Below, one piece after another: positions 16,303-60,110 of a DNA stretch of 64,000 nucleotides (position 1 is its first letter; each line of letters begins with the position of its first letter). The stretch spans positions 1 to 64,000 of the IMG/VR virus record IMGVR_UViG_3300034031_000020. One strand, written 5' to 3'. The position numbers and the translations under genes were made by a program. Under the pieces are notes generated by a model, which saw only the letters and a program-made list of their open reading frames with translations, was not told the DNA's origin and made no database searches. This DNA is from a virus.

Positions 16303-16800
16303 ATGAGCATACTCACCCCCGGGCAGGATCTCAGATATCAGGCGCAACGCCGGGCGTACGCCCTGGGCGGACCGGTCCAGGTACGGGACTGGGAACTCCC
16401 GGCGGGCGACGGTGCGTGGACCCTCCTGGCCCGGTGCGGGCAGCAGCAGCCGGGCGCCCCTGACCCGGACATGTTCTTCCCACTGAAGAGTGACAGCGCC
16501 GAGACGTACCAGGCGCAGGCGTACTGCGCGCAGTGCCCCGTCCGGGACCTGTGCGACCAGGCGGCCACCAAGAACCGGTGGGTCGGCGTGTGGGGCGGCA
16601 TCCTGCGCGACGACCGGGGCAACCCGGTGCCGCTGTGCAAGGAACCCGGGTGCCTGCGGTACCGGGCCGTCGGCGCCGCCCGGTGCGGACCGTGCGGCAC
16701 CCGGTTCGGCCGCCCCCGCGCATCCCGGGCGGCATCACAGACCCCGGCGACCGAACTGGTCGCCGAGACCACCGAACGAGAGGTGGTGATGGTCGCGTGA
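16303..16800 (+). CDS. whiB: WhiB-family Fe-S transcription factor with extra C-terminal Cys4 motif
   Basis: ARC...PDMFFP...AQAYCAQCPVRDLC...GVWGG; additional CKEPGC...CGPC. Confidence 0.9.
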   Translation: MSILTPGQDLRYQAQRRAYALGGPVQVRDWELPAGDGAWTLLARCGQQQPGAPDPDMFFPLKSDSAETYQAQAYCAQCPVRDLCDQAATKNRWVGVWGGILRDDRGNPVPLCKEPGCLRYRAVGAARCGPCGTRFGRPRASRAASQTPATELVAETTEREVVMVA

Positions 16801-18592: not shown

Positions 18593-19993
18593 ATGACCAG
18601 AGACGCTGACGTCCTGTCCGTACCCGACGACCCATGGGAGGGGATGCTCGACGAGAACGGCGACGTCGTTGAGCCGCCGGACGATGACGCGACCTCGGTC
18701 ACCCGCGCCGAACGGGCGTCCGCCGACCCGGACGACTTCTGGCAGGCCCGGCCGATCCTGAAGCACATCCACGCCTTCGCCCGCAGCCAGCGGGTAGGCC
18801 CGTGGGCGGTCCTCGGGACGGCGCTGGCCCGGGTCATCGCGCAGACGCCCCCGGAGATCCAGCTCCCCCCCACCATCGGCTCGTACGCGAGCCTGAACCT
18901 GTTCGTCGGCCTGGTCGGGGAGTCCGGCGACGGTAAGGACGCCGCGCAGGAAGTCGCCGCCGATGCGCTCTACATCGAGAACCCCACGTTCCGGGTCGCC
19001 CCCCTCGGTTCCGGTGAGGGGCTCGCGCACATGTTCATGCGGCCCGGCAAGGCCACGAAGGACGACCCGTACCCGGAGGCCGAGCAGTACAACCGGTCCA
19101 GCCTCGTCACCATCGGGGAGATCGACTCGTTGGCCGCCCTCGTCCAGCGACAGTCGTCCACCGTGACGACGCAGCTCCGTCAGGCGGCCATGGGGCAGCA
19201 GCTCGGGTTCTTCTACGCCGACGCGGCGAAACGGATGATGGTCCCGCCGCACTCCTACCGGCTGTGTCTCGTCGCGGGCATCCAGCCGGAGCGGTCCGGC
19301 ATCCTGTTGAACGACGAGGCCGGTGGGACCCCGCAGCGGTTCATCTGGCTGCCGACCGGCGACCCCGGCGCGCAGCGCAGCGTCCCCCCGGCGCCGACCC
19401 CCATGATCTGGCAGCCGCCGGACTGGATGTATGCCGAGCGGGCGCACTCCAACGGGCAGATGAGACGACTCGTCACCCTCCCGGAGATCGTCCGGGACAT
19501 GATCATTGACGCGCGGGTGAGCAGGCTCCAGGGGACCGGCGAGAAGCTCAACTCCCACGCGTTGCTGACCCGGGCGAAGGTCGCCGCCGCGTTCATGATC
19601 CTGGACGGCCGGTACCGGCCGGAGGAAACCGACTGGGACCTGTCCGGCACCGTCATGACGGTCTCCGACACGCAGCGGGCCCGCTGCCAGCGCGCACTCC
19701 AAACCGAGGCGAAGAAGGCCAACCTCGGCAAGGCCCTGGCCGACGCGGACCGGACCCTCGTCGTGGAGGAGCACATCGACCGGGTAAAGGTCACGAAGTG
19801 TTCCGAATCGGTCAAGCGCATCTTAAGGATCAACGGCGCAGTGACCAGTGGGGTGCTCCGCCAGAAACTCCACGTCAGTAACCGAGAGTATATGGACGCG
19901 GCGGTTGACGTTCTCCACCTGGCGGGGGAGATTCAGGTCGAGGAGACTGAGTACCGGGGGCAGAAGGGGAAGCGGATATGGCTCCCCGAGTAA
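18593..19993 (+). CDS. replication helicase/initiator, DUF3987 (YfjI)-like P-loop protein
   Basis: SLNLFVGLVGESGDGK Walker A; GIQP; GGTPQRF; C-terminal winged helix; next to the iteron array. Confidence 0.75.
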   Translation: MTRDADVLSVPDDPWEGMLDENGDVVEPPDDDATSVTRAERASADPDDFWQARPILKHIHAFARSQRVGPWAVLGTALARVIAQTPPEIQLPPTIGSYASLNLFVGLVGESGDGKDAAQEVAADALYIENPTFRVAPLGSGEGLAHMFMRPGKATKDDPYPEAEQYNRSSLVTIGEIDSLAALVQRQSSTVTTQLRQAAMGQQLGFFYADAAKRMMVPPHSYRLCLVAGIQPERSGILLNDEAGGTPQRFIWLPTGDPGAQRSVPPAPTPMIWQPPDWMYAERAHSNGQMRRLVTLPEIVRDMIIDARVSRLQGTGEKLNSHALLTRAKVAAAFMILDGRYRPEETDWDLSGTVMTVSDTQRARCQRALQTEAKKANLGKALADADRTLVVEEHIDRVKVTKCSESVKRILRINGAVTSGVLRQKLHVSNREYMDAAVDVLHLAGEIQVEETEYRGQKGKRIWLPE

Positions 19994-20009: not shown

Positions 20010-20176
20010 TTTAAGGGGTGTAGGGGTGTACCAGGTACACCCCTTGGCTACAAATAAGCCTGAATCGACGATCATCGAAAAAGGCTCTGACCTGCATATA
20101 TATAAAAAAATGGTCTGATATATAGAGAGGGTTTGCGGCCAAGGGGTGTACCAGGTACACCCCTACACCCCTTAAA
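20010..20176. repeat. putative replication origin: 39-bp inverted repeats with AGGGGTGTA iterons around an AT-rich core
   Basis: 20010-20048 and 20138-20176 are reverse complements with one mismatch; spacer contains ATATATATAAAAAAA. Confidence 0.8.
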
Positions 20177-20213: not shown

Positions 20214-20882
20214 GTGAGCGAGCGACCCGACAGCGACCACAGCGACAACGTCCCGGACGTGACCACCTCAGCCGGGGAAGACATCACCGAGAACACACAG
20301 CGAGTGACAGACGGCCGTCCGGCGGTTCCTGTCGATGCGGTCGAAGGCCGGACCCCGACGGGCGGCGAGGGCGGTTCGCGGCAGGGCCTGGGTACGGGTC
20401 GGGTGTCGGTGGTCCACGTGGACGCGGCCTCCGGTGCCTCGCTCCCCCCGTTCGACGTCTCGGCGGCGGTCGCGGCGTGCGTCGCGGCGACCGGGGCACC
20501 GGTGGCGCTCACGCCCCCGCAGTGCTGCCCGGTGTTCCCGGACGGCGCGCATCGGTGCGGCCTGCCCGCGACGCACCTCGCTGGCACCTCTGAGAGCGCC
20601 GTGGAGGGCCGTTCGGCGGCGGACCACGTCTGTGGGTGCGGCTTCGTGTGGTGTTCGACCTCGGGCGGCGTGAGCGGGCTGTGCGCGGACATGGAGCAGT
20701 CGTCCCGGTCGGGCGCTGAGCGGGTCGTGAGCCGGATCGTGGAGCGGCTGACGAAGGTGGGGTACGACCTGACCGACAAGGAGTGGCGGGTCGCGGCGGG
20801 TGCGGGCGGCGGCGGCCGTTCGGGGTTCTCCCCGGTGGAGGTGGTCCGGCAGGTGGCGCGCCGGGAGGGCGCCGATCTGTGA
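20214..20882 (+). CDS. hypothetical protein with Cys/His cluster
   Basis: SD AAGGAG before GTG; HRC...HVCGCG. Confidence 0.55.
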   Translation: MSERPDSDHSDNVPDVTTSAGEDITENTQRVTDGRPAVPVDAVEGRTPTGGEGGSRQGLGTGRVSVVHVDAASGASLPPFDVSAAVAACVAATGAPVALTPPQCCPVFPDGAHRCGLPATHLAGTSESAVEGRSAADHVCGCGFVWCSTSGGVSGLCADMEQSSRSGAERVVSRIVERLTKVGYDLTDKEWRVAAGAGGGGRSGFSPVEVVRQVARREGADL

Positions 20883-20930
20883 GACCCTTCTGGGCGGTAT
20901 GAACTGCCTGCCGACTTGGAGGACCTGAGG

Positions 20931-21638
20931 ATGATCACCAACACGGACGCCCCCGTGCACGGCCACACGGCCGACAGCACGGGGGCGCGCACCGACGAGG
21001 CCCCGACGGATGTCCTCGACGACCGCGCGGATTGTGAGCACTGCCGAGGGACGGGGAAAGCGTTGCGGACGTCGGACTGGCTGGCGGCGTCGTTGACGCT
21101 GTTCCCGACGGAGTCCCCGGAGAAAATGGACTCGATCATCGCGGAGTTCTACCGGCGGCTCGTGGCCGCCGACGAGGGCAAGGACCTGGGCGACCGGGTC
21201 GCCCCGCTGTTCCCGGCGGACCTGACGACGGGTCCGGCGTTGAACTCGAAAGGCAACCGGCAGCGGGACATGCTGCTGCACGCGATCGTGAGCTTGGTCG
21301 AGAACTTCGACCCGGATCATCTGAACTCGGCGAACATGCGCCAGTTGGTGGAGATCCTCCGGAAGGAGGGCCGTAACCACGCCGCATTCGAGCGCCCGGA
21401 CGGCACGGTGCGTGGGGTGACGCGGGCGGAGTACGAGGAAGTCGGCGCCGTCCTGATGACGATGCTGCGGGAAGTGTTCGCCGACCTGTGGCTACCCCAG
21501 TTCGACGCGGGGTGGGTCGAGGCGTACGAGTTCGCGATGATCGAGATGCTGCACGCGCAGCAGCACTATCGGATGCCGGACGGCCGCCGACCGCAGTTCG
21601 GGCGCCGGGTCCGGGCCTCCGTGGGGGGTGCCGAGTGA
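20931..21638 (+). CDS. globin-domain protein (3/3, flavohemoglobin/single-domain type) with N-terminal CxxCxGxG
   Basis: EFYRRL (B9-B10), PLFP (CD1), QRDML (E7), GRNH (F8 His), GV..AEYEEVG (G helix), W..AY (H helix). Confidence 0.85.
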   Translation: MITNTDAPVHGHTADSTGARTDEAPTDVLDDRADCEHCRGTGKALRTSDWLAASLTLFPTESPEKMDSIIAEFYRRLVAADEGKDLGDRVAPLFPADLTTGPALNSKGNRQRDMLLHAIVSLVENFDPDHLNSANMRQLVEILRKEGRNHAAFERPDGTVRGVTRAEYEEVGAVLMTMLREVFADLWLPQFDAGWVEAYEFAMIEMLHAQQHYRMPDGRRPQFGRRVRASVGGAE

Positions 21639-21877
21639 TCACCGGTCAGAAAGTGGTCACGCCGGGGGCTTTGGCCGCCGCGTTCACGGAGTGGGACCGC
21701 CGGTACCGGGAGGACCCGGAGGGTTTCGACCGGGAGTACCAGGCGACCTCGTCGGCGACGGAGTACGGGGCCCGCGCGGCGGAGTACCTGTTGAAGGTCC
21801 TCCGCAGCCAGGGCGGGGTCGCGACCCTGTCCGAGGGTGCGATCGTCCGTGACCCGGTCGTCGAGGGTGACGCGTGA
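21635..21877 (+). CDS. hypothetical protein
   Basis: GTGA overlap; AFTEWDRRYREDPEGF. Confidence 0.7.
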   Translation: MITGQKVVTPGALAAAFTEWDRRYREDPEGFDREYQATSSATEYGARAAEYLLKVLRSQGGVATLSEGAIVRDPVVEGDA

Positions 21878-22209: not shown

Positions 22210-22506
22210 ATGTTGATGACACCTGCCCCGCCGAGGGGCACCGATGAGGCCATCACGATCATCCGGGACGAGGACGGGCGCCTGCACCTGGAGGGCGACG
22301 CCGAGCCGCCCGCGTACACGGCGTTCTCGGCGGAGTTGCTGGCGATGCTGCGCCGCAGCGGCTCGCTGTGGGCGTCGCTGGACGGCGACACGGTCGTGAT
22401 GCGGTTGACGGGCCTGACCCTGCGGTACCAGCTCACCGGGGAGGTCGACCTGGGTGACGCCCACGTCGGCCAGCGGGTCACTGAGGACGGGGAGCCGTGG
22501 CCATGA
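22210..22506 (+). CDS. hypothetical protein
   Basis: Codon bias; ATGA coupling to the DUF1353 gene. Confidence 0.6.
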   Translation: MLMTPAPPRGTDEAITIIRDEDGRLHLEGDAEPPAYTAFSAELLAMLRRSGSLWASLDGDTVVMRLTGLTLRYQLTGEVDLGDAHVGQRVTEDGEPWP

Positions 22507-23042
22507 GGATGCGGCTGGCGACGTCCCGGTTCGACGACGAAACGCGTGTCCTCGTGGAGGCTCTCGACGCTGAGCACTGGAAGACGCTGCGCGACATCAC
22601 GTACGGCCCGTACACGGTCCCGGCGGGGTTCCGCACGGACTTCGCTTCGGTCCCCCGCGTCGCCGTGTGGTTGATCCCCCGGTTCGGCCGGTTCACCCTC
22701 GCCGCGATCCTGCACGACTATCTGTTGACCTTGGTTCGGGCGGGTTCGCTGGCTTCGGTGGAGGCGGACCGGGTGTTCCGGGAGGCCCTGGCCGGGTTGG
22801 ATACCCCACCGGTCCGGCAGTGGTTGATGTGGACGGGTGTCCGGTGGGGCGCGGCGGCGAGCCCGTACCGGCGGGCCGGTTGGTGGCGGACCGCGCCGCA
22901 GGTCCTGGGGATGACGGTGGCCGTGTTGTCGACGGTGGTCATCCCGGTCGCCGTGGTCGCGGTCGCGCTCGGGCTGGCGGTCTATTCGCTGTTCGAGGCC
23001 GCAGCGACCGGCGGGCGCCGCCGGGGCAACCTGACCACGTAG
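22503..23042 (+). CDS. DUF1353-family protein with C-terminal TM segment
   Basis: VPAGFRTDFASVPR, AAILHDYL, EADRVFREAL. Confidence 0.85.
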   Translation: MRMRLATSRFDDETRVLVEALDAEHWKTLRDITYGPYTVPAGFRTDFASVPRVAVWLIPRFGRFTLAAILHDYLLTLVRAGSLASVEADRVFREALAGLDTPPVRQWLMWTGVRWGAAASPYRRAGWWRTAPQVLGMTVAVLSTVVIPVAVVAVALGLAVYSLFEAAATGGRRRGNLTT

Positions 23043-41163: not shown

Positions 41164-41544
41164 ATGACGGCTGAACCGCGCGAGCCCGGCGAGGTGGAGA
41201 AGGCCGTGGAGACCGACCTGGCCGGGATCGACCGGCTCGGTACCGGCAAGGTCTTCCTCGCGGCGAGCGCGAGGAAGTTGGCCAGGGCGATCGACGCCCG
41301 GGGTGACGACGAGGCGCCGTCGGCGCTGGCGAAGGCGGTCGACTCCCTATTCAAGGTCATGGCGGCCCTGATGGCGAAGGATGGGACAGGCCATGACGAC
41401 CTCAAACAGCTCCAAGGGCTCTTCGGCAGTCCTGACGCAGGAAGCTCTTCGGTGTCCCCCGCGCTTCGGTACCCGCCGGAGCCTGGACCGGCCAACGGTC
41501 GGACCCGCAATCGCCAAGGTCGCAAGGGCGCTCGACCCGAGTAA
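41164..41544 (+). CDS. terS: terminase small subunit
   Basis: Small helical protein (ARKLARAID) directly upstream of and overlapping terL. Confidence 0.7.
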   Translation: MTAEPREPGEVEKAVETDLAGIDRLGTGKVFLAASARKLARAIDARGDDEAPSALAKAVDSLFKVMAALMAKDGTGHDDLKQLQGLFGSPDAGSSSVSPALRYPPEPGPANGRTRNRQGRKGARPE

Positions 41545-43042
41545 GGAATCCCTACCCCACCAGCGGTACATGTACGACGTGATCGGCGAACTGGACCCGG
41601 AGACCGGGCTGTTCGCGTACGACGACGTCACCCTAGTCGGGCCCCGGCAGGTCACCGGGAAGACCGAGTTCCTGTTGCCCCTGATGGCGTGGAGGTGCAC
41701 CGGCCTCGGACATGAGGTCGTCGAGTTCGCGCGGCGGGAGTTCGGCATCGACGTCCCCGAGCCGGGACCACAGAAAGTCATGTACACGGCGCAGCGGGCG
41801 GAGGACGCCCGGCAGAAGTGGCGGGACGTCCACGTCGAGCGGATCAAAGAGTCCCCGATGCGGGCGCTGTGGTCGAAGCCGCCCCGGCTCCGGCTCGCCG
41901 CTGAGGCCATGTTCTGGCGCAACGGGTCCGTGTGGGTGCCGGGTTCGACGACGGGGAAGTCCGCCGGTACCGGTGACCAGCTCGACCTCGGCGTCATCGA
42001 TGAGATGTGGGCGCAGACGGACGGCGGGACGGAGATCGGGATGCGCCCGACGATGCTGACCCGGCCGTGGCGGCAGTTGGTCCGGGCCAGCATGGTCCCG
42101 GGCCTGTCGCGGGTGGCGCCGGAGAAGTGGGCGTACATGCGGCAGAAGATGTCCGCCGGGCGCGCGAAGGTCGAAGCGGACCTGCGGCACGGTTCGGCGT
42201 ACTTCGAGTGGTCGGCGCCGCCGGACGCGGCGCCGTCGGACCCGGACACGTGGTGGAACTGTATGCCCGCCCTGGGGTACACGGTGCCGTTGAAGAACGT
42301 CCAGTCGGACTTCGACGACCTCGACCTGATCGACTTCTGCGCGGAGTATCTGGGCTGGCCACCGACCGGCGCGCTACCCATGTGGAGCGTCATCTCGGAG
42401 CAGACGTGGGCGGACCTGTGGCACCCGGGCCGGTATCAGGAACCCATCGCGATCGGGGTCGACTCGAACCCGGAACTGACCGTTGCGTCGCTGGGGATGG
42501 CCGCGCAGTGCACCGACGGCGGGGACATCCACCTGGAGCTAATTGATCGCAGGGCTGGCGTCAACTGGCTCGTAGAGGCGATCCTGTCCATATGCAGGTC
42601 ACAACCCGTGTGCGCGGTCGGCATCGACCGCAACGGTCCGTTAGCGGGCATTGTGCGACCGTTGCAGCGTGCGGCGGAGGAGCAGCGGCTGGACATCACC
42701 ATCGCCGGGAACCACGAACAGGGCCTGAACTCGGCCGAGGTCGCGGCGGCGTGCGCGCAGCTCTACAACGAGACAGGGGAGCACGATGACGATGATCCCG
42801 AGGCCGAGGCGGCGACCCTTCGCCGTGTGCGTCACATCGGCCAGGAGGAGCTCACAGCGGCCGTCGGCGGCGCGGTCCGGCACTACCAGGGGGACCGGTG
42901 GCGGTGGCACCGGGCGGGGTCCGCTATCGACGTCTCCCCTCTGTACTCGGTCACTCTGGCGCGAGCTGCGGGTGAGGCTGAGGAGTGGATGGGCGGCGCC
43001 TATGACATCACTACCTCCCTCGGTGGGGCTGTTCGCCAGTGA
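41393..43042 (+). CDS. terL: terminase large subunit
   Basis: PHQ, GPRQVTGKT Walker A, VIDE Walker B, WWNCMPALG, nuclease GVD. Confidence 0.93.
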   Translation: MTTSNSSKGSSAVLTQEALRCPPRFGTRRSLDRPTVGPAIAKVARALDPSKESLPHQRYMYDVIGELDPETGLFAYDDVTLVGPRQVTGKTEFLLPLMAWRCTGLGHEVVEFARREFGIDVPEPGPQKVMYTAQRAEDARQKWRDVHVERIKESPMRALWSKPPRLRLAAEAMFWRNGSVWVPGSTTGKSAGTGDQLDLGVIDEMWAQTDGGTEIGMRPTMLTRPWRQLVRASMVPGLSRVAPEKWAYMRQKMSAGRAKVEADLRHGSAYFEWSAPPDAAPSDPDTWWNCMPALGYTVPLKNVQSDFDDLDLIDFCAEYLGWPPTGALPMWSVISEQTWADLWHPGRYQEPIAIGVDSNPELTVASLGMAAQCTDGGDIHLELIDRRAGVNWLVEAILSICRSQPVCAVGIDRNGPLAGIVRPLQRAAEEQRLDITIAGNHEQGLNSAEVAAACAQLYNETGEHDDDDPEAEAATLRRVRHIGQEELTAAVGGAVRHYQGDRWRWHRAGSAIDVSPLYSVTLARAAGEAEEWMGGAYDITTSLGGAVRQ

Positions 43043-43126: not shown

Positions 43127-43471
43127 ATGACGTCACCGACGGTCGGCCGTATCCCCGCCGAGATGACGCCCGCTACCGAGCTGGTCGAGGTCGAACCCGC
43201 CGAGACGGTGAAAGAGCACGTGTCGACGCTGCTCTCCAACGTCGCGATCCTGGCGATGGTCGTCGGCCTGACCTGGGGCCTGTGGTCGCACCTCGGCCCG
43301 TGGGCGCTGTGCGCCGGGGGTTTCGCGCTGGCCGTCCTGGTGAGCGTCACCGACTTCGCCCGTCGGCCCCAGCTACTCCCCGAGGCCGAGCCCGCCCCAC
43401 CGCCGAAGGGCCCTCCGGGGCCGACGTCGGCGGGCAACCTCCACACGAAGGGACCGGGTGCTGAGTCATGA
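43127..43471 (+). CDS. small membrane protein upstream of portal
   Basis: Two TM segments; CATGTT -10 6 nt upstream. Confidence 0.7.
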   Translation: MTSPTVGRIPAEMTPATELVEVEPAETVKEHVSTLLSNVAILAMVVGLTWGLWSHLGPWALCAGGFALAVLVSVTDFARRPQLLPEAEPAPPPKGPPGPTSAGNLHTKGPGAES

Positions 43472-44838
43472 GCCAGTGGTCGAGGGCGTACACCCGCCCC
43501 CGCGCGACGCGGGCGTTCACCGGCATCTCCGGGGCCTCCGAGACCCTGGCCGGAGTCACCATCCCCGGCCGTGGGGGCGCGGGACGGCACGGGACAGTCC
43601 AGGTGACCGAGTCGAAAGCCATGACCCACTCGGCGTACTGGGCGTGTCTGCGCCTGCGGGCGGACCTGTTGTCGACGTTCCCCGCCGACGTGTACCGCGA
43701 CTTCGAGGGCATCGCCATCGAGATGCCGAAACCGCCCGTCATGGTCGACCCGGGTGGGGTGGAGTGGGACTTCGTCGACTGGATGTGGGCCAGCCAGCGG
43801 GACCTCGACTCCACCGGCAACGCGATCGGGATCATCCGGGAACGCAACGCGATCTCCACCCGCTACTACCCCGACGGCCTCCCCTCGATGATCGAACTGG
43901 CGGACACCCGGGGCTGCTCCATCGTGGTGCACAAGGGGAAGAAGCAATACCGCATCGACGGGAAGTTCTACAACCCGAACGAGGTCTACCACGAACGGCA
44001 GTACCGGATGTCGGGCTCCCCGGTGGGCCTGTCCCCGCTCATCATGGCGGCGGCGTCCGTCGGCGAGTACCTGTCCCTCCAGCAGTACGGCTTGGACTGG
44101 TTCCAGGGCGGCGGCATCCCGAAGGCGTGGATGCAGAACACCCGCAAGTCGCTCCAGGATGAGGAGCGGACGGCGGCGAAACAGTGGTATCAGGACACCG
44201 TCGGTAACGGCGACCTGATGGTCACGGGCCGTGACTGGGAATACAACATGATCCAGGCGGAGACGGCGGGCATGGAGTGGCTGGAGGGCCGCCGGTACGG
44301 CATCGCCGAGGTGTGCCGGTTCCTGTCGACGCCGCCGGAGATGGTCCACGGCGCGGTGTCAGGCCAGTCGGTGACGTACGCGAACGTCACCCAGGCGAAC
44401 CTCCAGTTCCTGATCATGCACCTTGCCCCGGCTGTGATCCGGCGGGAGAAGAACCTGTCGAAGTTCCTCCCGATGCCGCGTTACGTGAAGTTCAACACCG
44501 ACGCGCTGTTGCGCATGGACCCGAAGACCCGCCAGGACGTCCTCCGCTCACGGTTGGAGACGTGGCAGGTCACGAACGCTGAGGCGCGCAAGCTCGACAA
44601 CTTCGAACCCCTCAGCGCTGCCGACAAGGCCGAGATGGTGGAGATCTACGGTGCGCCGCAGATCGGTAAGGGCCCGAAGCCCGAACCGGCTCCAGCTCCC
44701 GGCCAAAGCTCGCCCGGACAGGGCGACGAGACGAACACACCGGCGATCCCCGCCGAGGCGACGTGGTCGCCGGAGCTACGGGAGATCTCCGAGTTCGCTC
44801 ACCGCGTCGAGAAGATGGCGGAGCTGACGGCGGCATGA
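43468..44838 (+). CDS. HK97-family portal protein
   Basis: WACLRL, GNA, GLSP, EVCRFLSTPP, TYANV, ALLRMD, NAEAR. Confidence 0.93.
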   Translation: MSQWSRAYTRPRATRAFTGISGASETLAGVTIPGRGGAGRHGTVQVTESKAMTHSAYWACLRLRADLLSTFPADVYRDFEGIAIEMPKPPVMVDPGGVEWDFVDWMWASQRDLDSTGNAIGIIRERNAISTRYYPDGLPSMIELADTRGCSIVVHKGKKQYRIDGKFYNPNEVYHERQYRMSGSPVGLSPLIMAAASVGEYLSLQQYGLDWFQGGGIPKAWMQNTRKSLQDEERTAAKQWYQDTVGNGDLMVTGRDWEYNMIQAETAGMEWLEGRRYGIAEVCRFLSTPPEMVHGAVSGQSVTYANVTQANLQFLIMHLAPAVIRREKNLSKFLPMPRYVKFNTDALLRMDPKTRQDVLRSRLETWQVTNAEARKLDNFEPLSAADKAEMVEIYGAPQIGKGPKPEPAPAPGQSSPGQGDETNTPAIPAEATWSPELREISEFAHRVEKMAELTAA

Positions 44839-44851
44839 GAGAGGCGAAGGC

Positions 44852-46678
44852 ATGGCGGATTCACTTCACCGGCGTCGGCTGGCGGATCTAGTCGATTCGA
44901 CGGCGAACCGGGTCATCGAGCAGGCGGTTACGGACGACGTCCCGATCACGGAGCTGCGCGCGATGCGGCTGCGCTGGTACGAGATGCGCGCGGCCACCCC
45001 GGACCGGGTGCCGGGCGGCGGCACGGCGGCGAACGTCTACATCTACGACAAGATCGGCGGGAGTCTCGGGGTGAACGCGAAGACGTTCGCCGCCGACCTC
45101 GCGGACCTCGACGTCGACACGATCCACCTGCGGATCAACTCGCCGGGCGGGTCGGTGTTCGACGCGCTCGCCATCATGAACACGCTGCGGCAGCACCCGT
45201 CACGGGTCGTCGCGCACATCGACGGGATCGCGGCGAGCGCGGCCTCCGTGGTGATGCTGGGTGCGGACGAGATCGTCGTGGAGCCCGGCGGCGAGGTGAT
45301 GACACACAACGCGTCGACGACCGCCGACGGCCAGCCGACGATGCTGCGCCAGGTCGCGACGTGGCTGGAGCGGCAGTCCGACAACATCGCCGACCTGTAC
45401 GCGCAGCGGTCCGGGGCGACCCGGGAGCAGTGGCAGCAGCTCATGGACGAGGAGACCTGGTTTTACGGCGACGAGGCCGTTCAGATCGGCCTCGCGGACC
45501 GGGCGGAGACCCTGCGCGGCCCGGCGCCGGTCCCGGACGCTGACATGGCGGAGCGGATGCGCAAACGACACAGCCTCCAGGCGTTCCGCTACCAGGGCCG
45601 TGCGGCGCAACCGACCACCCCGGTCCTTCCCGAACCGATGATCAGGAAGGCGGCACCTGTGACGACGACCAGGACCGCTCGGGGTGGGGTGCCGTCCGAG
45701 GTCCGTGACGCGGCGCAGCTCCGCCGCCGCGCGTTCGACCGGCGGATGATGACCCGTTCGGCTCCCGCCGGGATCACCGTGCAGTCCCGCCGGTCCCCGG
45801 CCGGTGGGGACATCGTCCACGACATGGTCGAGCTGCGCGGCAGGCAGATGCACCGGACGAAGGGGTACTTCACGGTCTACAACCGTGGCTATGAGATGTG
45901 GGACGCGTTCGGCCCGTATCAGGAGGCCGTCGTGGACGGCTCCGGCACGGAGACGATCGGCCAGGGCCCGGACTGTATCTTCCTGGTGAATCACACCGGC
46001 TTGGCGCTGGCCCGGACCGGCGGCACGTGGAATCAGCACCGGGGGACCCTGGAGTTGTCGGAGGACACGAACGGCGGTCACCACGTCGGCTACCTCAACC
46101 CGGCGAACTCGTACGTCCAGGACCTGGTCCCGCTCATGGACGACGGTGTGATCACGGAGATGTCTTACGCCTTCATGATCACGGACGGTTGGTGGAACGA
46201 CGACTTCACCCGCTTCGAGATCCGCCGCTACGACATGGAGCGCGGTGACGTGTCCGCCGTCAACTACGGGGCCAACCCGTACACGGACATCTCCGCCCGC
46301 GCCGCTGAGGTCCTCGACGAGTTGGAGAGCCTGCCGCCGGGCGCGATCCGGGAGGCCCACCTCCGGCTCGGCCGCCGGATCGAGTCGTACGAGCAGCTCC
46401 TCCGGGACGTCGACCCGGGTCGCGCGGCGCGCATCGCGGACGTCGCCCTGGAGTCCCGCGCCGTCGGCGGGGAGTCCACCGACGACGAGATCTCAGCGGC
46501 GGAGAAGTGGGTCGCGGAGGCCCTCGGCCGGGGCGGAGCGGGCCCCGGCGTCGGGTCCGGTACTCCTGACCTGCCGCAAGACGCAACCAAGGTCATTGAC
46601 AACACGGCCCCTGAAGGGCCTACCGTGGCATCGTACGAGGCACTAGCGGCGTCGATCGGGATCAAGCTCCCTCAGTAA
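44852..46678 (+). CDS. capsid maturation protease: ClpP-like domain fused to an HK97-type prohead protease domain
   Basis: RINSPGG, DGIAASAAS, MTHN, EETW (ClpP); FLVNH..LART..LELSED..EMSYAF..DVSAVNYGANPYT (HK97/S78). Confidence 0.88.
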   Translation: MADSLHRRRLADLVDSTANRVIEQAVTDDVPITELRAMRLRWYEMRAATPDRVPGGGTAANVYIYDKIGGSLGVNAKTFAADLADLDVDTIHLRINSPGGSVFDALAIMNTLRQHPSRVVAHIDGIAASAASVVMLGADEIVVEPGGEVMTHNASTTADGQPTMLRQVATWLERQSDNIADLYAQRSGATREQWQQLMDEETWFYGDEAVQIGLADRAETLRGPAPVPDADMAERMRKRHSLQAFRYQGRAAQPTTPVLPEPMIRKAAPVTTTRTARGGVPSEVRDAAQLRRRAFDRRMMTRSAPAGITVQSRRSPAGGDIVHDMVELRGRQMHRTKGYFTVYNRGYEMWDAFGPYQEAVVDGSGTETIGQGPDCIFLVNHTGLALARTGGTWNQHRGTLELSEDTNGGHHVGYLNPANSYVQDLVPLMDDGVITEMSYAFMITDGWWNDDFTRFEIRRYDMERGDVSAVNYGANPYTDISARAAEVLDELESLPPGAIREAHLRLGRRIESYEQLLRDVDPGRAARIADVALESRAVGGESTDDEISAAEKWVAEALGRGGAGPGVGSGTPDLPQDATKVIDNTAPEGPTVASYEALAASIGIKLPQ

Positions 46679-46840: not shown

Positions 46841-48295
46841 ATGGGCCAAAGCCTGGAAAGTCTGGTCACCTCGATCGAGGTGGAACTGGAGAACGCCAAC
46901 CGGCGCAAAGAGCGCGCAGCGCAGCGGGTCGTCGAGATCCTGTCGTCGGCCCGCCGTGAGGGCAACGCCACCCTCTCCCCTGCGGAGCAGGAGGAGATCA
47001 ACCGCGAGTTCCAGAACCGTCAGGTCGCTGAGAGCGACATCGACGGGATCAAGGTCAAGCTGGAGTCCGCGAAGCGGATCCAGACCCTCGAACTTCAGAA
47101 CGACGTCGGTCTCAGGGAACGCACTCCCGTCGACGCGAGCACCAGCGGCGGGGATGTCGCCCGCACCCAGTACGGGGCCCGCGCGTACGACGAGGTCGCC
47201 CGCATCGGGCAGGAGAAGCGGACCTACAGCCCCGACAACTGCCGCAAGGGCACCGAGTTCCTCGCCGACGTCATCGCGTCGTACGCCCACAACGAGGAGG
47301 CGTCGTTCCGGCTCCGGGCGCACATGCGTGAGGAGCGCGTCGAGCGCGGCGCGTACCTGGAGAAGCGGGCCAACGTCGGCACGTCGAACTTCGCGGGCCT
47401 CGTCGTCCCGCAGTACCTGACGGACCTGTACGCCCCGGCGGTCGCGGCCCTGCGGCCGTTCGCGGACATCTGCAACCAGCACGACCTCCCCGAGAACGGG
47501 ATGACCGTCAACATCTCCCGCATCACGACCACCACGGCGGCGGGGATCCAGACGGAAGGCAACGCGGCACCCACGGCGGACATCGACGACACCCTCCTGT
47601 CGGAGAATGTCCAGACCGCCGCCGGGTACGCCGACCTGACCCGCCAGGCCATCGAGCGTGGGTCCGGTGTCGAGGAAGTCACCATGGACGACCTGATGCG
47701 CCGGTTCGCGACGTCGCTGGACGGGACGCTGCTCACCCAGGCGACGACGGGCCTCACGAACGTGTCGGCGGCGACCACGTTCGACGACACGACACCGACG
47801 GTGCCGGAGCTGTGGCCCAAGTTCCTCGGCGCCATGGCGAACGCTGAAGGCGCCCTGTTGGGTATGGCGTTCCCCGACTACATCATCATGCACTCCCGGC
47901 GCTGGTACTGGCTTCAGAGCTACCTCGGCTCGCAGTACCCGTTCATCGGCCAGCCCGGCATCCCCCCGACTCAGGGCGGTGTCGCCAACGGCAACGGCTA
48001 CAACCAGGGCGTACGCGGCACCCTCCCGAACGGGATGCGGGTCATCGTCGACAACAACATCGCGACGAACGGCGGCGTCGGCACCAACCAGGACGAGATT
48101 TACGTGGTCGCGTCGTCGGAGTGTCACCTGTGGGAGGACCCGAACGCCCCGGTCTTCATCCGCGCGGAGCAGCCCCTGGCGCACCAGCTCGCGGTCCGGC
48201 TCGTCATGTACGGGTACTTCGCGTACAGCTTCCGCCGGTACACGAACGCGCAGCAGAAGATCGCCGGTACCGGCCTCGTCAGTCCGTCGTTCTGA
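46841..48295 (+). CDS. major capsid protein (HK97 fold, N-terminal delta/scaffold domain)
   Basis: Coiled-coil N-terminus, GLVVPQY, IIMHSRRW, position after the protease. Confidence 0.92.
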   Translation: MGQSLESLVTSIEVELENANRRKERAAQRVVEILSSARREGNATLSPAEQEEINREFQNRQVAESDIDGIKVKLESAKRIQTLELQNDVGLRERTPVDASTSGGDVARTQYGARAYDEVARIGQEKRTYSPDNCRKGTEFLADVIASYAHNEEASFRLRAHMREERVERGAYLEKRANVGTSNFAGLVVPQYLTDLYAPAVAALRPFADICNQHDLPENGMTVNISRITTTTAAGIQTEGNAAPTADIDDTLLSENVQTAAGYADLTRQAIERGSGVEEVTMDDLMRRFATSLDGTLLTQATTGLTNVSAATTFDDTTPTVPELWPKFLGAMANAEGALLGMAFPDYIIMHSRRWYWLQSYLGSQYPFIGQPGIPPTQGGVANGNGYNQGVRGTLPNGMRVIVDNNIATNGGVGTNQDEIYVVASSECHLWEDPNAPVFIRAEQPLAHQLAVRLVMYGYFAYSFRRYTNAQQKIAGTGLVSPSF

Positions 48296-54371: not shown

Positions 54372-57300
54372 GTGGCCGTTCAGACCGTCGCTGAGGCCGC
54401 CCTCATCGTCCGCCCCGACTTCTCTGGGACGTCCGCCGGTGTCCGGGCCGGTGCCCGCAAGGCCGGGGAGCAGGCCGGGGACGAGACCGGGCGGGGGTTC
54501 TCGTCCCGGCTCCAAGTCGCGATGGACAAGGCCGGGCGCGGCGGGGCGACCGCGTTCGCGAAGGGCTTCGACGGCGGCGGCGGGACCTTCGCCCGGGTTG
54601 TCGCGACGATGGCCGCGAAGATGACCCTTGCGGGTGCCGCCGTCGCGACGGTCACCCCTGGGATCGTCCAGCTCACCGCCGCGCTCATCCCGGCGGCGGG
54701 TGCCGCCGTGGCCCTCCCGGCGGCCCTGATCGGGATCCAGGCGGCGGCGGCGGTCGTGAAGGTCGCCACCGCCGGTGTCGGCGACGCGATCACGAAGGAC
54801 TTCACCGGTACCGCGAAGCAGGCCAAAAAGGCGATGGATGCGCTGCCGCCGTCTGCGCAGCGTTTCGCCCGGTCCATCATCGCGTTGAAACCCCGGATCG
54901 CTGAGCTGCGGGCGTCGGTGGCTCAACGGTTCTTCGCCCCGCTCCAGGACGAGATCCGTCCCCTCGCCGAACGGTACTTCCCGATGCTTCGCCGGGAGAT
55001 GGCGAACACGGCAGGCCCGCTCGGTGGGCTCGGCGAGCAGGTCGCGCAAACCGCCCGCAAATCCGTCGTCTTCAACGCGGTCCGGGACGTCTTCAGGAAC
55101 ACCCGGCTCGCGGCGGTCGAGCTGCGCGGCGGGATCGACCCACTCGTGGTCGGGTTCTCGAACCTGATCCGGGCGACGGTGCCGGAGCTGCCGAAGATGG
55201 CGTCCGGGTTCACCGGCGTCGCGACGTCCGTCGGGAAGTGGCTGACGCAGGCGTCGAAGTCCGGCCAGATCATGCAGATCTACCGCAACGCCATCGACAC
55301 GATCAAAGAGCTGGGCGCCATCTTCGGTGACCTCGGCGCGATCGTCGGCGTCGTCTACACCCAGTCGAACATCAGCGGCGGCAACCTGTTGCGGACCATC
55401 AAGGGTCTGACGGCGGAGGCCCGCGAGTTCGTCACCTCAGCCAGCGGGGTCAAGACCTTGCAGTCCGGGTTCGGTGTCCTCGCCAGCATGGGTGAGGGGC
55501 TACGGACCGGCCTCGGTGGGGCGCTCGTCGCGATCGGTGAGTCCATCCGCATCGCGGCGCCGCTGCTGTCGCAACTCGCCGTCATCGCGGGCCGCCTCGT
55601 CGCCGCGCTCGCGCCGCTGCTGCCCGCGATGACGATGCTCGCGGTCCAGGTCCTGACGGCGTTGCTGCCGTCTATCATTTCCCTGACGGGGTGGCTGGAA
55701 CGCAACCAGGACACCGTCCGGTCGCTCGCCCCGTACGTCCTCGGCGCGGTCGTCGCGTTCCAGGCGTACCGCCTCGCCGTGATCGTCGCGTCCGTCGCCA
55801 CCCGGACGTGGGCCATCGCGATGGGGGTCGCGAAAGTCGCGCAGGCCGGTTGGACGGCCGTCGTGTGGCTGGCCACCCTGCCGGTGAAGGCGCACACGGC
55901 GGCGATGCTGCTGTCCCGTTCCACGATCGGTACCTGGATCGGCGTGAAAGCGATCGAGGCCGGTGCGTGGGCGCGCAGCACGGCGGCGGCGGTCGCCGCT
56001 CGCGTCGCGACCCTCGGATCCACGGCGGCGACCCTGGGCCACCGCGCCGCGACCCTGGCGTCAACGGCCGTCACGAAGGCGTCAGCGGCGGCCACGGCGA
56101 CGTGGGCAGCAGTGACGGCCGGTGCCACGGCGGTGATGAAGGGCGTCCGGATCGCGGTCCTCGCCGTGAACGCGGCCATGCGCGCGAACCCCATCGGCGT
56201 CGTCATCACGATCATCATGCTGTTGGTCGGCGTCCTCGTCATCCTGTACCAGCGCAACCAGACGGTACGGCGGGTCGTCGACGCCGCGTGGAAGGGCATC
56301 AAGACAGCAATCTCCGCCGTCGGCTCGTGGTTCCAGAACACCCTTTGGCCGCTGTTCCGCAAGTATCTCGACTTCCTGATGACGCACTTCCGGCTGTTCC
56401 TGCGGATCGCGCAGTCCGTGTGGACGACCGCCCGATCGGTCATCAGTGGTCAGGTCGCCCTCGTCATCAAGGTGTTCCAGGGCCTGCGGAACTTCGTCAC
56501 GAAGACCCTCCCGGACGGCTTCAAGTCGGGTGTGTCAGCGATCCAGCGGTACTGGAAAGGCGTCCAGGAGGCCGCCCGCGTTCCGGTGGCCTTCGTCGTC
56601 AACCGGGTCGTCAACCCGTTCATCACCGGATTTAACAAGATCTCCAGCGTGTTCGGTGTGAAGGCCGTCCCCACGGTCGGCGGGTTCGCCGAGGGCGGCC
56701 AGATCCCAGGGCCCCCGTCGTCGAAGGACAACCGGGTCGCGTGGCTGAAAGACGCCGCCGGGCGCGCCGTGTCGAGTATCAGCGTCGCGACGGGTGAGTT
56801 CATCGTCAACGCCCGCGACACCGCGAAGGCGCTCCCCCTGCTCCGCTGGATCAACGACGGGATGAAGGGCGGACCGGCGGCGATCACCCGGCGTCTCGGC
56901 CGTCGGCCGGTGGACCGGGCGGGGGACGGCTCCGAGGGCTACGCGTTCGCGAAGGGTGGCCTCGTCGGGTTCCTGTCCGACGTGTGGGGCGCCATCAGTG
57001 ACCCGGCGAAACTCATCAAGGCACCCGTCGAGGCGATGATCCGGCAGATCCCCGGCGGTGGACTCGTCCGTGACGTGCTCGTCGGCATGGGCCACAAACT
57101 CATCAGTGGCCTTACCGGGTTCCTGTCCGGCGGCGGCGGGTTCGGCGGCGGGACCGCGACCGGCAACGTCGGTAAGGCGCAGTCGTTCGTCCGCGCGCAG
57201 GCCGGGAAGCCGTACGGGTGGGCGAACGCGGGCCCCGGGTCGTACGACTGCTCCGGCATCGTGTCGGCGGCGTACAACGTCATGAAGGGCAAGAACCCGT

Positions 57301-57830
57301 ACTCGCACACGTTCTCCACGGGTAGCCTCCCCGGGCCGTGGTTCGCGCAGGGCCGCCGGGTGGGTCCCCTCGTCGCCGGGTGGGCGCACCCCGGGCAGCG
57401 CGGCGCGTCCGCGAACGTCGGCCACATGGCAGGTTCCATCGGCGGGATGCCGTTCTCCAGCACCGGTTCCCGAGGTGTCCGGGTGGGCCCGGCGGCCGAC
57501 AAGGTGACCGACTTCGCGTACATCGGCGCGGCCCGCGCGGCTGGTGGCCTCGTCGAACTCCAGAAGATCGCGAAGGTCGCGCAGGCCGACTTCGGCAACG
57601 TCACCCTCGCCCCCGGGCAGAACCTGATCTATAACGGCCTCGGCCGCCCCGAGCCGCTGGTCACCCCGAAGCCCCCCACCGGTGGGCCCGGCGGCGGCGC
57701 GCGGATGCACCCCGACGACATAGCGGCACTGGCCGACGCGATCGGCGGGGTCCTCGGCCGCGCGCTGCTCGGCACCGTCCCCGCGACCCGGGCGGCGGCG
57801 CGGCAGGCAGGGCGGAGGCCCGGACGATGA
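54372..57830 (+). CDS. tape measure protein with C-terminal NlpC/P60 domain
   Basis: 1152 aa, Ala-rich helical, ANPIG; GKPYGW..YDCSG..GHM. Confidence 0.92.
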   Translation: MAVQTVAEAALIVRPDFSGTSAGVRAGARKAGEQAGDETGRGFSSRLQVAMDKAGRGGATAFAKGFDGGGGTFARVVATMAAKMTLAGAAVATVTPGIVQLTAALIPAAGAAVALPAALIGIQAAAAVVKVATAGVGDAITKDFTGTAKQAKKAMDALPPSAQRFARSIIALKPRIAELRASVAQRFFAPLQDEIRPLAERYFPMLRREMANTAGPLGGLGEQVAQTARKSVVFNAVRDVFRNTRLAAVELRGGIDPLVVGFSNLIRATVPELPKMASGFTGVATSVGKWLTQASKSGQIMQIYRNAIDTIKELGAIFGDLGAIVGVVYTQSNISGGNLLRTIKGLTAEAREFVTSASGVKTLQSGFGVLASMGEGLRTGLGGALVAIGESIRIAAPLLSQLAVIAGRLVAALAPLLPAMTMLAVQVLTALLPSIISLTGWLERNQDTVRSLAPYVLGAVVAFQAYRLAVIVASVATRTWAIAMGVAKVAQAGWTAVVWLATLPVKAHTAAMLLSRSTIGTWIGVKAIEAGAWARSTAAAVAARVATLGSTAATLGHRAATLASTAVTKASAAATATWAAVTAGATAVMKGVRIAVLAVNAAMRANPIGVVITIIMLLVGVLVILYQRNQTVRRVVDAAWKGIKTAISAVGSWFQNTLWPLFRKYLDFLMTHFRLFLRIAQSVWTTARSVISGQVALVIKVFQGLRNFVTKTLPDGFKSGVSAIQRYWKGVQEAARVPVAFVVNRVVNPFITGFNKISSVFGVKAVPTVGGFAEGGQIPGPPSSKDNRVAWLKDAAGRAVSSISVATGEFIVNARDTAKALPLLRWINDGMKGGPAAITRRLGRRPVDRAGDGSEGYAFAKGGLVGFLSDVWGAISDPAKLIKAPVEAMIRQIPGGGLVRDVLVGMGHKLISGLTGFLSGGGGFGGGTATGNVGKAQSFVRAQAGKPYGWANAGPGSYDCSGIVSAAYNVMKGKNPYSHTFSTGSLPGPWFAQGRRVGPLVAGWAHPGQRGASANVGHMAGSIGGMPFSSTGSRGVRVGPAADKVTDFAYIGAARAAGGLVELQKIAKVAQADFGNVTLAPGQNLIYNGLGRPEPLVTPKPPTGGPGGGARMHPDDIAALADAIGGVLGRALLGTVPATRAAARQAGRRPGR

Positions 57831-59424: not shown

Positions 59425-60110
59425 TGGCCGGGTACTCGGAGGGTCTGCTGGGCCTCATCGACTCCCGGACCGCCCGGGACGCGCCCGCGAAGATGGGGAC
59501 CGTGCAATGGCGGTCCACGGGGGCGCTGGCCGGTGACCCCGGCATGTACGCGGTGACCGTCATCTTCGACGGCAGCGGCGGTACCGCGCAGGAGGTCAAA
59601 TGCTTCGAGTCCGTCATCGTCGACGAGGGCGACCGGGTCGGGGTGATCCGGTACGAGGGTGAATGGATCGTCACCGGCAACTACCGGCTCCGGACCCTGG
59701 CGGACGCGTCGCTGCGACTCCAGTACGGCACGTCCTCGGGGACCACCTCGGCGACGTTCGTCGACATGCCCTCATCACCGACGGCGTCACCGATCAAGGT
59801 CCGGGATTACACCCTGTTCCGGATCTCCATCGACCTGTCCCTCACATCCACGGTCACGGGCACGGTCGTGGAGCTGGGGGCGTACGTCGCGAGCGTCGAC
59901 GGGACCGTGGCGTACGACGAGGTGATCTGCAAACGGGCCATCAACGCGGCGGGCGACCACCGGGAAATCGGTGGCTGGACGACCACGGCCGCGCTCGTCG
60001 GCGGCGGGTACGCGGTCACCGGCCGGTGGCGCCGGGTGTCGGGGACGGGCACGCTCAACATGGACGCCAACGACGGGGTTCACCTGCGGGTCCAGGAAGT
60101 GGTGACGTAA
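59424..60110 (+). CDS. minor tail protein
   Basis: TAATG coupling; GDRV OB-like N-terminus. Confidence 0.75.
   Translation: MAGYSEGLLGLIDSRTARDAPAKMGTVQWRSTGALAGDPGMYAVTVIFDGSGGTAQEVKCFESVIVDEGDRVGVIRYEGEWIVTGNYRLRTLADASLRLQYGTSSGTTSATFVDMPSSPTASPIKVRDYTLFRISIDLSLTSTVTGTVVELGAYVASVDGTVAYDEVICKRAINAAGDHREIGGWTTTAALVGGGYAVTGRWRRVSGTGTLNMDANDGVHLRVQEVVT

What the first reader, a model, noticed from the sequence alone, without database searches (positions are those of the whole stretch)
20931..21638. Phage-encoded globin with a half DnaJ-type zinc motif
Seen: the landmarks of a 3/3 bacterial globin are present in order: Phe-Tyr B9/B10 (EFYRRL), CD1 Phe (PLFP), Gln E7 (QRDML), proximal His F8 (GRNH), G-helix Tyr (AEYEEVG) and W..AY in helix H. 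There is no FAD/NAD reductase domain. A single CEHCRGTG motif precedes it. It sits two genes downstream of the origin, with its own SD and the CTGCCGA leader motif. Established: TyrB10/GlnE7 globins are NO dioxygenases or O2/NO sensors. Inference: it may protect Fe-S proteins or respiration during infection, or act as a sensor, and the lone CxxCxGxG could dimerise through a shared metal. I do not know globins as a usual phage gene.
Basis: partly seen in the sequence, partly recalled or inferred. Interest (0 to 1): 0.85.

Follow-up and report, generated by a model that had tools for sequence, protein, structure and literature searches.

The report
Phage haem globin with cysteine knuckle
An uncultured, probably virulent phage of a high-GC actinobacterium carries a genuine haemoglobin-type gene with the full O2/NO-binding pocket of bacterial flavohaemoglobins plus a two-cysteine metal knuckle; it belongs to a sizeable, apparently undescribed globin family that I found only on phage DNA.

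Summary
The ORF at 20931-21638 (+), 235 aa, is a real 3-on-3 globin. Its AlphaFold model superposes on Hell's Gate globin I (Z 15.1, rmsd 2.0 A, 130 of 131 residues). The protein alone misses Pfam Globin; 60 of 105 relatives hit it.

The record is a complete 79-kb siphovirus-type genome with no integrase or FNR-type reductase module detected.

The family has 133 clusters at 50% identity. It adds three features:
- one CxxCxGxG knuckle directly before helix A, whose two Cys are the only cysteines in 74 of 105 members;
- an 8-residue insertion after His-F8;
- a basic RxxR tail.

One DNA pattern gave 11 of 11 true members in IMG/VR contigs and 0 of 5 in 185,579 species genomes. GenBank phages, plasmids and PHROGs gave nothing, and I found no paper.

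Most likely it is a haem NO/O2-reactive protein, a reductase-less NO dioxygenase or scavenger that host reductases recycle during lytic infection. That function is inferred, not shown.

This scan reported the same family on at least four other genomes.

The parts
20908..20914 (+). CTGCCGA motif just upstream of the ribosome-binding site
   Evidence: The motif occurs 30 times against 13 expected, and about 9 copies sit directly 5' of the SD of early + strand genes.
20917..20922 (+). Shine-Dalgarno-like GGAGGA, 8 nt before the ATG
   Evidence: Read from the sequence.
20931..21638 (+). Globin gene, 235 aa plus TGA stop
20931..21032 (+). N-terminal acidic/Thr-rich extension (res 1-34), predicted disordered
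   Evidence: pLDDT is 40-51 over residues 1-30. In relatives this extension is 14-267 aa long and rich in P/A/D/R/T.
21033..21056 (+). Single CxxCxGxG knuckle (C35, C38, G40, G42)
   Evidence: Present in 104 of 105 relatives as CxxC and in 96 as exactly one full motif. Predicted as a short beta-hairpin.
21060..21563 (+). Globin domain, helices A-H (res 44-211)
   Evidence: VIA-align model range 44-208 against 3s1i, Z 15.1; Foldseek top hits are all globins; hhalign vs Hmp.
21147..21152 (+). Phe73-Tyr74 = B9/B10
   Evidence: Aligned to FHP F28/Y29 and to Hmp FY. Tyr is invariant in 105 of 105.
21210..21212 (+). Phe94 = CD1
   Evidence: Invariant in 105 of 105. Aligned to the FHP/Hmp CD1 Phe.
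21261..21275 (+). Gln111-Arg112-Asp113-Met114-Leu115 = E7, E8, E9, E10, E11
   Evidence: Aligned to the Hmp stretch that starts QREAL. Frequencies: Q 104/105, R 105/105, L 103/105.
21378..21380 (+). His150 = proximal F8
   Evidence: Invariant in 105 of 105. Aligned to FHP and Hmp His85.
21387..21416 (+). FG-corner insertion (F153-G162, family consensus FxRPDGTVRG), predicted beta-hairpin
   Evidence: An 8-residue gap in HGbI, FHP and Hmp relative to the family. Highly conserved. DSSP strands at about residues 152-160.
21432..21443 (+). Tyr168 (G5) to Val171 (G8)
   Evidence: Aligned to Hmp Y95 to V98. Frequencies: Y 101/105, V 102/105.
21603..21614 (+). C-terminal basic RxxR tail (R225-R228)
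   Evidence: R225 and R228 are each present in 103 of 105. RxxR lies in the last 25 residues of 101 of 105 members. Low pLDDT.
21635..21877 (+). Downstream 80-aa ORF whose GTG start overlaps the globin stop (GTGA), probably translationally coupled; no known family

Best explanation
The gene encodes a haem-binding, single-domain globin of the flavohaemoglobin type, made from the early/replication region of a probably virulent actinobacteriophage. The haem iron would hang from His150 (F8). The distal pocket would be formed by Tyr74 (B10), Gln111 (E7), Leu115 (E11), Phe94 (CD1) and Val171 (G8), the residue set that governs O2/NO chemistry in Hmp. I think it most likely binds O2 and turns host-made NO into nitrate, or simply scavenges NO/O2. 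That would keep respiration and NO-sensitive Fe-S proteins working while the phage replicates. The protein has no reductase domain and no FNR-type (FAD_binding_6/NAD_binding_1) reductase module was detected in the phage genome, so ferric haem must be re-reduced by host reductases. The single CxxCxGxG knuckle cannot make a four-ligand metal site alone. It probably completes one in trans, either in a homodimer or with a partner. Together with the conserved FG hairpin and the basic tail, it may form the docking or assembly surface. Shown: the globin fold, conservation of the pocket, the phage context and the family architecture. Inferred: haem binding, NO/O2 chemistry, use of a host reductase and metal-bridged assembly.
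For: Fold: Z 15.1, rmsd 2.0 A over 130 of 131 residues of HGbI, with hundreds of globins at Z above 8; the Foldseek top 50 are all globins. Homology: the A3 profile hits HGbRL at 2e-12, HGbI at 7e-10 and the full FHP globin domain at 4e-8; hhalign vs E. coli Hmp gives 96%, E 2.7e-9; 60 of 105 members hit Pfam Globin. Pocket: Y74, F94, R112 and H150 are invariant, and Q111, L115, Y168 and V171 are at least 96% conserved. These are the positions (B10, E7, E11, G8) named as controlling NO dioxygenation in Hmp (PMC7948479 abstract). No reductase. Phage and probably lytic. Actinobacterial host: 69.5% GC, WhiB, nearest cultured relatives are actinophages. Actinobacteria make NO endogenously, and their Wbl Fe-S regulators bind it avidly (PMC5133688). 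Knuckle: 104 of 105 have CxxC, and the two Cys are the only Cys in 74 of 105. A few members carry 2-3 tandem motifs as in DnaJ.
Against: There is no biochemical evidence of haem, of the metal or of any activity. The Glu at H23 of the flavohaemoglobin proximal triad is Gln or Ala here. P0001 alone is below the Pfam Globin threshold (12.6 vs 22 bits). No conserved redox partner gene lies next to the globin across loci, although my gene calling there was crude. A phage WhiB is present in only 4 of 9 complete globin-bearing genomes. The same pocket also occurs in O2-delivering VHb-type globins, so NO versus O2 cannot be decided from sequence.
Confidence: 0.45

Rival explanations
1. Haem-based gas or redox sensor. 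Ligand binding (O2, NO, CO) at the haem changes the conformation or assembly of the knuckle, tail and N-terminal extension. This would regulate a phage or host partner and tune the timing of replication or lysis.
For: The family keeps three non-globin add-ons under strong conservation: the knuckle, the FG hairpin and the RxxR tail. It also has a long, variable, disordered N-terminal extension typical of interaction regions. The gene lies among regulatory and replication genes. About 63% of members carry a DxGxH motif before the knuckle.
Against: No recognisable output domain is present. The sequence and profile matches are to flavohaemoglobin-type and single-domain globins; I did not compare it with the sensor-globin lineage (globin-coupled sensors, protoglobins). 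The pocket is the catalytic Hmp set.
Confidence: 0.2
2. Oxygen-buffering or oxygen-delivery globin of the Vitreoscilla VHb type. As an auxiliary metabolic gene it would sustain aerobic respiration and ATP supply in the O2-limited interior of mycelium or soil aggregates during infection.
For: It has the same TyrB10/GlnE7 pocket and single-domain format as VHb and Cgb, which are among the fold matches. The hosts are high-GC actinobacteria, which are mostly aerobic (my own knowledge).
Against: The VHb role in O2 delivery is itself debated (my own knowledge). Nothing in the locus links the gene to oxidases. The QR[DE]xL E-helix matches Hmp more closely than I recall for VHb (the VHb part is memory, not tested).
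Confidence: 0.15
3. Haem sink or non-haem ligand binder. The protein would sequester host haem or another hydrophobic small molecule rather than perform gas chemistry.
For: Globin-like folds can bind other ligands (PMC7475203). No reductase is encoded.
Against: Invariant His F8, Phe CD1 and Tyr B10 and near-invariant Gln E7 and Leu E11 would not all be needed for simple sequestration.
Confidence: 0.08
4. Host-derived passenger gene or assembly contamination with no role in the phage.
For: GenBank 'phage' records that carry hmp look like host DNA: a 1.5-kb record with a 100% identical fragment, an unverified scaffold with a full 429-aa flavohaemoprotein, and three further hits in unannotated records.
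Against: The gene sits inside a complete phage genome between phage genes on the same strand, with the phage's own leader motif. Relatives lie on 11 other IMG/VR contigs covering at least two capsid lineages. None was found in 185,579 species genomes.
Confidence: 0.02

Closest known systems
Globin domain of flavohaemoglobins (E. coli Hmp, PDB 1GVH; Cupriavidus FHP, 1CQX)
   Same: It shares the 3/3 fold (Z 13.9 to 1gvh). It also shares the pocket: Phe-B9/Tyr-B10, Phe-CD1, Gln-E7, Arg-E8, acidic E9, Leu-E11, His-F8, Tyr-G5 and Val-G8.
   Different: It has no FAD/NAD reductase domain. Glu-H23 is replaced by Gln or Ala. It has an 8-residue FG insertion, an N-terminal CxxCxGxG knuckle and a basic RxxR tail. 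It is phage-encoded.
Single-domain bacterial globins: Hell's Gate globin I (3S1I), HGbRL globin domain (3WFW), Campylobacter Cgb (2WY4), Vitreoscilla VHb (1VHB)
   Same: These are stand-alone globins of the flavohaemoglobin lineage without a reductase. They give the best structural match (3s1i, Z 15.1, 24% identity) and the best sequence match (3wfw, E 2e-12).
   Different: They are cellular proteins of about 130-146 aa without the knuckle, the FG hairpin or the tail. The phage family forms its own cluster, and its own members fill the hit list down to about E 1e-8.
DnaJ cysteine-rich (CR) zinc-finger domain, CxxCxGxG x4 (Pfam PF00684) and Anti-TRAP
   Same: The motif is spelled identically. 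Rare family members have 2-3 tandem copies at about 11-residue spacing, as in DnaJ. One member has a weak Anti-TRAP hit (E 0.044).
   Different: There is only one motif per chain, so no intramolecular Cys4 site is possible. No Pfam DnaJ_CXXCXGXG match was found.
Other phage-borne haem or tetrapyrrole genes (cyanophage and freshwater-phage haem oxygenase and PcyA, Shemin-pathway genes; a cytochrome P450 reported in a mycobacteriophage, from memory)
   Same: All are auxiliary genes that bring tetrapyrrole chemistry into infection (PMC11480375).
   Different: Those make or break tetrapyrroles, or are P450s. None is a globin. The paper searches found no phage globin.

Membership tests
Globin superfamily (3-on-3 myoglobin fold, Pfam PF00042) | 3-on-3 alpha-helical sandwich with helices A-H | tested here: met
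   AF2 model pLDDT 80.5. VIA-align Z 15.1, rmsd 2.0 A, 130 of 131 residues of 3s1i. Foldseek TM(target) 0.65-0.82. The ESM Atlas structure rows are globins.
Globin superfamily (3-on-3 myoglobin fold, Pfam PF00042) | Proximal His F8 and Phe CD1 in register | tested here: met
   H150 and F94 are invariant in 105 of 105 and aligned to His85 and Phe43 of FHP/Hmp.
Globin superfamily (3-on-3 myoglobin fold, Pfam PF00042) | Score above the Pfam gathering threshold | tested here: inconclusive
   P0001 alone has no hit in hmmscan and scores 12.6 bits against a cut-off of 22. By contrast, 60 of 105 family members hit at E <= 0.01, best 8e-9.
Globin superfamily (3-on-3 myoglobin fold, Pfam PF00042) | Binds haem b | not testable with these tools
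   This needs a UV-visible spectrum of the purified protein.
Flavohaemoglobin-lineage single-domain globins (VHb/Cgb/HGbI type) | Distal pocket Tyr-B10, Gln-E7, Leu-E11, Val-G8 | tested here: met
   Y74, Q111, L115 and V171 are aligned to Hmp Y29, Q53, L57 and V98 and are conserved in at least 97% of the family.
Flavohaemoglobin-lineage single-domain globins (VHb/Cgb/HGbI type) | Proximal His-F8 / Tyr-G5 / Glu-H23 hydrogen-bond triad | tested here: not met
   Tyr-G5 is present (Y168, 101 of 105). The position aligned to FHP Glu137 is Gln (64) or Ala (31). The H-helix alignment is less certain.
Flavohaemoglobin-lineage single-domain globins (VHb/Cgb/HGbI type) | Stand-alone, with no fused reductase | tested here: met
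   The protein is 235 aa with no further Pfam domain. Family lengths are 188-441 aa, and the extra length is an N-terminal region without any Pfam domain.
Flavohaemoglobin (Hmp, NCBIfam NF009805) | C-terminal FAD_binding_6 plus NAD_binding_1 reductase module | tested here: not met
   NF009805 scores 15.4 bits against a cut-off of 432. There is no PF00970 or PF00175 match anywhere in the 79-kb genome.
Flavohaemoglobin (Hmp, NCBIfam NF009805) | NO dioxygenase activity | not testable with these tools
   This needs an enzyme assay.
DnaJ CR-type zinc finger (PF00684) | CxxCxGxG motif | tested here: met
   C35-E-H-C-R-G-T-G42. It is at least 95% conserved across the family.
DnaJ CR-type zinc finger (PF00684) | Four motifs pairing into two intramolecular Zn(Cys)4 centres | tested here: not met
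   There is one motif per chain in 96 of 105 members, and the two Cys are the only Cys in 74 of 105. No PF00684 hit was found.
Globin-coupled sensors | Globin fused to a transmitter domain (MCP, GGDEF, kinase, STAS) | tested here: not met
   No such domain is present in P0001 or in 105 relatives.

The most novel reading that the evidence does not exclude
Nitric oxide, or a related haem ligand, made by actinobacteria acts as a brake on phage replication. Under this reading the phage-only globin family is a counter-measure. It would be a self-assembling enzyme in which two knuckles from a dimer build a Cys4 metal centre (Zn, or a rubredoxin-like Fe), so that the globin works without the fused flavin reductase that cellular NO dioxygenases need.
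Probability: 0.1. Interest if true: 0.9.

Novelty: new variant of a known kind. Interest (0 to 1): 0.68.

Why it matters
Globins are among the best-studied protein families, yet I found no report of a virus-specific lineage in the searchable literature. Here there is a diverse family of 133 clusters at 50% identity, with its own architecture: knuckle, globin with an FG hairpin, and basic tail. It is carried by at least two capsid lineages of probably virulent actinophages and was not found in 185,579 species genomes.

If it detoxifies or senses NO or O2, it would show that gas and redox chemistry is a battleground or resource in phage infection of actinobacteria, where endogenous NO controls Wbl regulators. 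It would also add a new class of auxiliary metabolic gene. A reductase-less globin with a built-in metal knuckle is a compact scaffold of interest for haem-protein engineering.

Tried and rejected
- **c-type haem attachment through CxxCH:** rejected. His follows the second Cys in only 10 of 105 members.
- **Fused or split forms:** the length-unrestricted HMMER search found family members of 108-441 aa only. The extra length is an N-terminal region with no Pfam domain. The outliers P0107, P0129, P0130 and P0134 are unrelated multi-globin, repeat or TPR proteins.
- **Conserved neighbour or redox partner:** none was seen across 8 loci, but my GC3-based gene calls were crude.
- **A second CxxCxGxG protein as a hetero-partner:** none in a coding frame in the 64-kb window. 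The last 15 kb were fetched but not scanned for the motif.
- **Coupling to a phage WhiB:** not general.
- **Cellular or prophage origin:** two scans of genome contigs found no relative. The plasmid search found none.
- **Cultured phages:** none with P0001 or P0013. PHROGs gave no family. BFVD gave no globin-like viral structure.

Full report
**What is there.** The window is bases 1-64000 of an IMG/VR virus record of 79,451 bp that CheckV rates 100% complete. It has 69.5% G+C. It carries a siphovirus-type late module:
- large terminase, 41381-43042;
- portal, 43468-44838;
- head protease, 44852-46678;
- major head protein, 46841-48295;
- tape measure, 54372-57830.

The early region holds a methyltransferase, an exonuclease with an ERF recombinase, a RuvC-like protein, a WhiB (16303-16800, Pfam E 2e-12) and a primase/polymerase-type protein at 18593-19993. 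No tyrosine integrase or serine recombinase was detected. The nearest cultured phages are actinophages, and only distantly: major head protein 28% identity to Mycobacterium phages, terminase at most 27%.

The ORF at 20931-21638 (+) encodes 235 aa with GC3 of 0.92. A GGAGGA lies 8 nt upstream, preceded by CTGCCGA. The stop overlaps the GTG start of an 80-aa ORF (GTGA).

**Is it a globin?** On its own the protein misses Pfam Globin (12.6 bits against a cut-off of 22). It gives only weak hits to Hmp (NCBIfam E 0.007) and to PDB globins. It does, however, have many relatives: 13 by word search and 133 clusters at 50% identity by exhaustive HMMER.
- A profile of 105 relatives (A3) hits the HGbRL globin domain at E 2e-12, Hell's Gate globin I at 7e-10 and the whole globin domain of FHP at 4e-8.
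- hhalign of A3 against the E. coli Hmp globin domain gives 96% probability, E 2.7e-9.
- 60 of the 105 relatives hit Pfam Globin individually.
- The AlphaFold model (pLDDT 80.5) matches only globins in Foldseek. It superposes on 3s1i with Z 15.1, rmsd 2.0 A, over 130 of 131 residues, using model residues 44-208.
- The ESM Atlas agrees.

**Landmarks.** The alignments to FHP and Hmp put the residues as follows:

| Residue(s) | Globin position |
|---|---|
| F73-Y74 | B9/B10 |
| F94 | CD1 |
| Q111-R112-D113 | E7, E8, E9 |
| L115 | E11 |
| H150 | F8 |
| Y168 | G5 |
| V171 | G8 |

The E-helix stretch matches the one that starts QREAL in Hmp. Y74, F94, R112 and H150 are invariant across the 105 relatives, and Q111, L115, Y168 and V171 are at least 96% conserved. 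B10, E7, E11 and G8 are among the positions reported to control NO dioxygenation in Hmp (PMC7948479 abstract). One departure stands out: the residue aligned to the proximal-triad Glu-H23 is Gln or Ala.

**What the family adds.**
1. One CxxCxGxG directly before helix A. CxxC is present in 104 of 105 members, exactly one full motif in 96, and the two Cys are the only cysteines in 74. A few members have two or three tandem motifs spaced as in the DnaJ cysteine-rich domain. The Pfam DnaJ model does not match.
2. An 8-residue, highly conserved insertion just after His-F8 (consensus FxRPDGTVRG). It is absent from HGbI, FHP and Hmp and is predicted as a beta-hairpin.
3. A C-terminal RxxR tail in 101 of 105 members.
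4. A disordered N-terminal extension of 14-267 aa that matches no Pfam family.

No FNR-type (FAD_binding_6/NAD_binding_1) reductase module is encoded anywhere in the phage genome.

**Where the family lives.** Every homologue whose source I looked up comes from metagenome assemblies (JGI, ENA, Logan). One comes from an NCBI assembly on a 4.8-kb contig, and none comes from UniRef. JGI's automatic label for some is 'hemoglobin-like flavoprotein'.

I built a DNA pattern for FPxDL..QR[DE]xL..GxxHxxF, which catches 79 of 105 members at the protein level.
- In IMG/VR contigs it found 11 stretches, all true members (E 1e-66 to 8e-95) with 60-74% G+C.
- In one genome for each of 185,579 prokaryote species it found 5 stretches, all chance matches.

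An earlier peptide-pattern scan of those genomes was also negative. tblastn found nothing in 50,697 GenBank phage records or in 72,556 plasmids. PHROGs has no family for it, and BFVD holds no globin-like viral structure.

Of ten other globin-bearing viral records, five share this phage's major head protein (53-79% identity). Four complete genomes do not, so at least two capsid lineages carry the gene. In the closest relative the gene is syntenic, with the primase-type protein at 62% identity. None of the nine complete genomes has a tyrosine integrase. This fits virulent phages and would explain why the gene is absent from bacterial genomes.

Canonical hmp does appear in six GenBank 'phage' records. 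Those I looked at seem to be host DNA: a 1.5-kb record holds a 100% identical fragment, and an unverified scaffold holds a full 429-aa flavohaemoprotein.

**How it probably works.** Shown so far: the globin fold, the conserved Hmp-type pocket, the absence of an FNR-type reductase module, the phage context and the family-specific add-ons.

Inferred: it binds haem through His150 and reacts with O2 and NO. The complete B10/E7/E11/G8/CD1 set makes NO dioxygenation or scavenging the single most likely chemistry, with host reductases recycling the haem. That is how reductase-less bacterial globins are thought to work (my own knowledge). Actinobacteria make NO endogenously, and their Wbl Fe-S regulators bind it tightly (PMC5133688). 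Controlling NO during infection is therefore a plausible benefit. It cannot be tied to the phage's own WhiB, which only 4 of 9 complete genomes have.

A single two-Cys knuckle needs two more ligands. A metal site shared between two chains, or with a partner, is the simplest reading. A semi-conserved DxGxH motif upstream (His in 63% of members, Arg in this protein) might add a ligand in some members.

The rivals are a haem sensor, VHb-like O2 supply and haem sequestration. Sequence alone cannot separate them.

**Literature and earlier notes.** Seven of my eight full-text searches looked for phage or viral globins or NO in phage infection; none found a phage globin. A recent globin review mentions phages only for a fold analogy. 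The eighth search, for the phage P450 report that I recall, did not find it.

The scan's own index shows the same family reported on at least four other genomes, with the same reading. I reached it independently here. Those notes are not independent evidence.

**Verdict.** This is a new, phage-restricted architectural variant of a known superfamily.

Noticed in passing
window 20010-20176: A 45-nt inverted repeat (93% complementary; each arm holds the palindrome GGGGTGTACCAGGTACACCCC) flanks a 77-nt AT-rich spacer in an otherwise 69.5% GC genome. It lies between the primase-type gene and the gene before the globin.
   Followed up: partly
window, e.g. 1785, 1802, 8685, 9077, 9358, 11463, 14745, 18557, 20908: CTGCCGA occurs 30 times against 13 expected. 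On the + strand it often sits a few bases 5' of the Shine-Dalgarno sequence of early genes. It looks like a start-associated leader motif, reminiscent of those described in some mycobacteriophages (from memory).
   Followed up: partly
window 16303-16800: A phage-encoded WhiB-family Fe-S regulator (Pfam PF02467, E 2e-12). WhiB is also present in 3 of 8 other complete globin-bearing phages.
   Followed up: partly
window 20214-20882: A Cys-rich 222-aa protein of unknown family lies directly upstream of the globin. It has no Pfam or PHROG hit.
   Followed up: partly
alignment A3 (family), about 13-24 residues before the knuckle: A semi-conserved DxGxH motif sits in the otherwise disordered N-terminal extension. 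His is present in 63% of members, but this phage's protein has Arg there. Its role is unknown; it may be an extra metal ligand or a short linear motif.
   Followed up: no
window 22497-23042: A DUF1353 protein (Pfam E 5e-25; PHROG label 'tail assembly chaperone') lies in the early region, far from the tail genes.
   Followed up: no
window 54372-57830 and 59663-63340: The tape-measure protein carries an internal region that matches endolysin-type PHROGs. A 1225-aa downstream protein has a phosphodiesterase-like region (phrog_24476).
   Followed up: no
GenBank phage records OR851668.1, CAKLQH020000003.1, OR849863.1, MT835497.1 (L024): Records labelled as phage carry flavohaemoprotein (hmp) sequence. 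One is a 1.5-kb record 100% identical to part of E. coli Hmp, and one is an 'UNVERIFIED' high-GC scaffold with a 429-aa ORF. They look like host DNA rather than phage globins.
   Followed up: partly
   Followed up: partly
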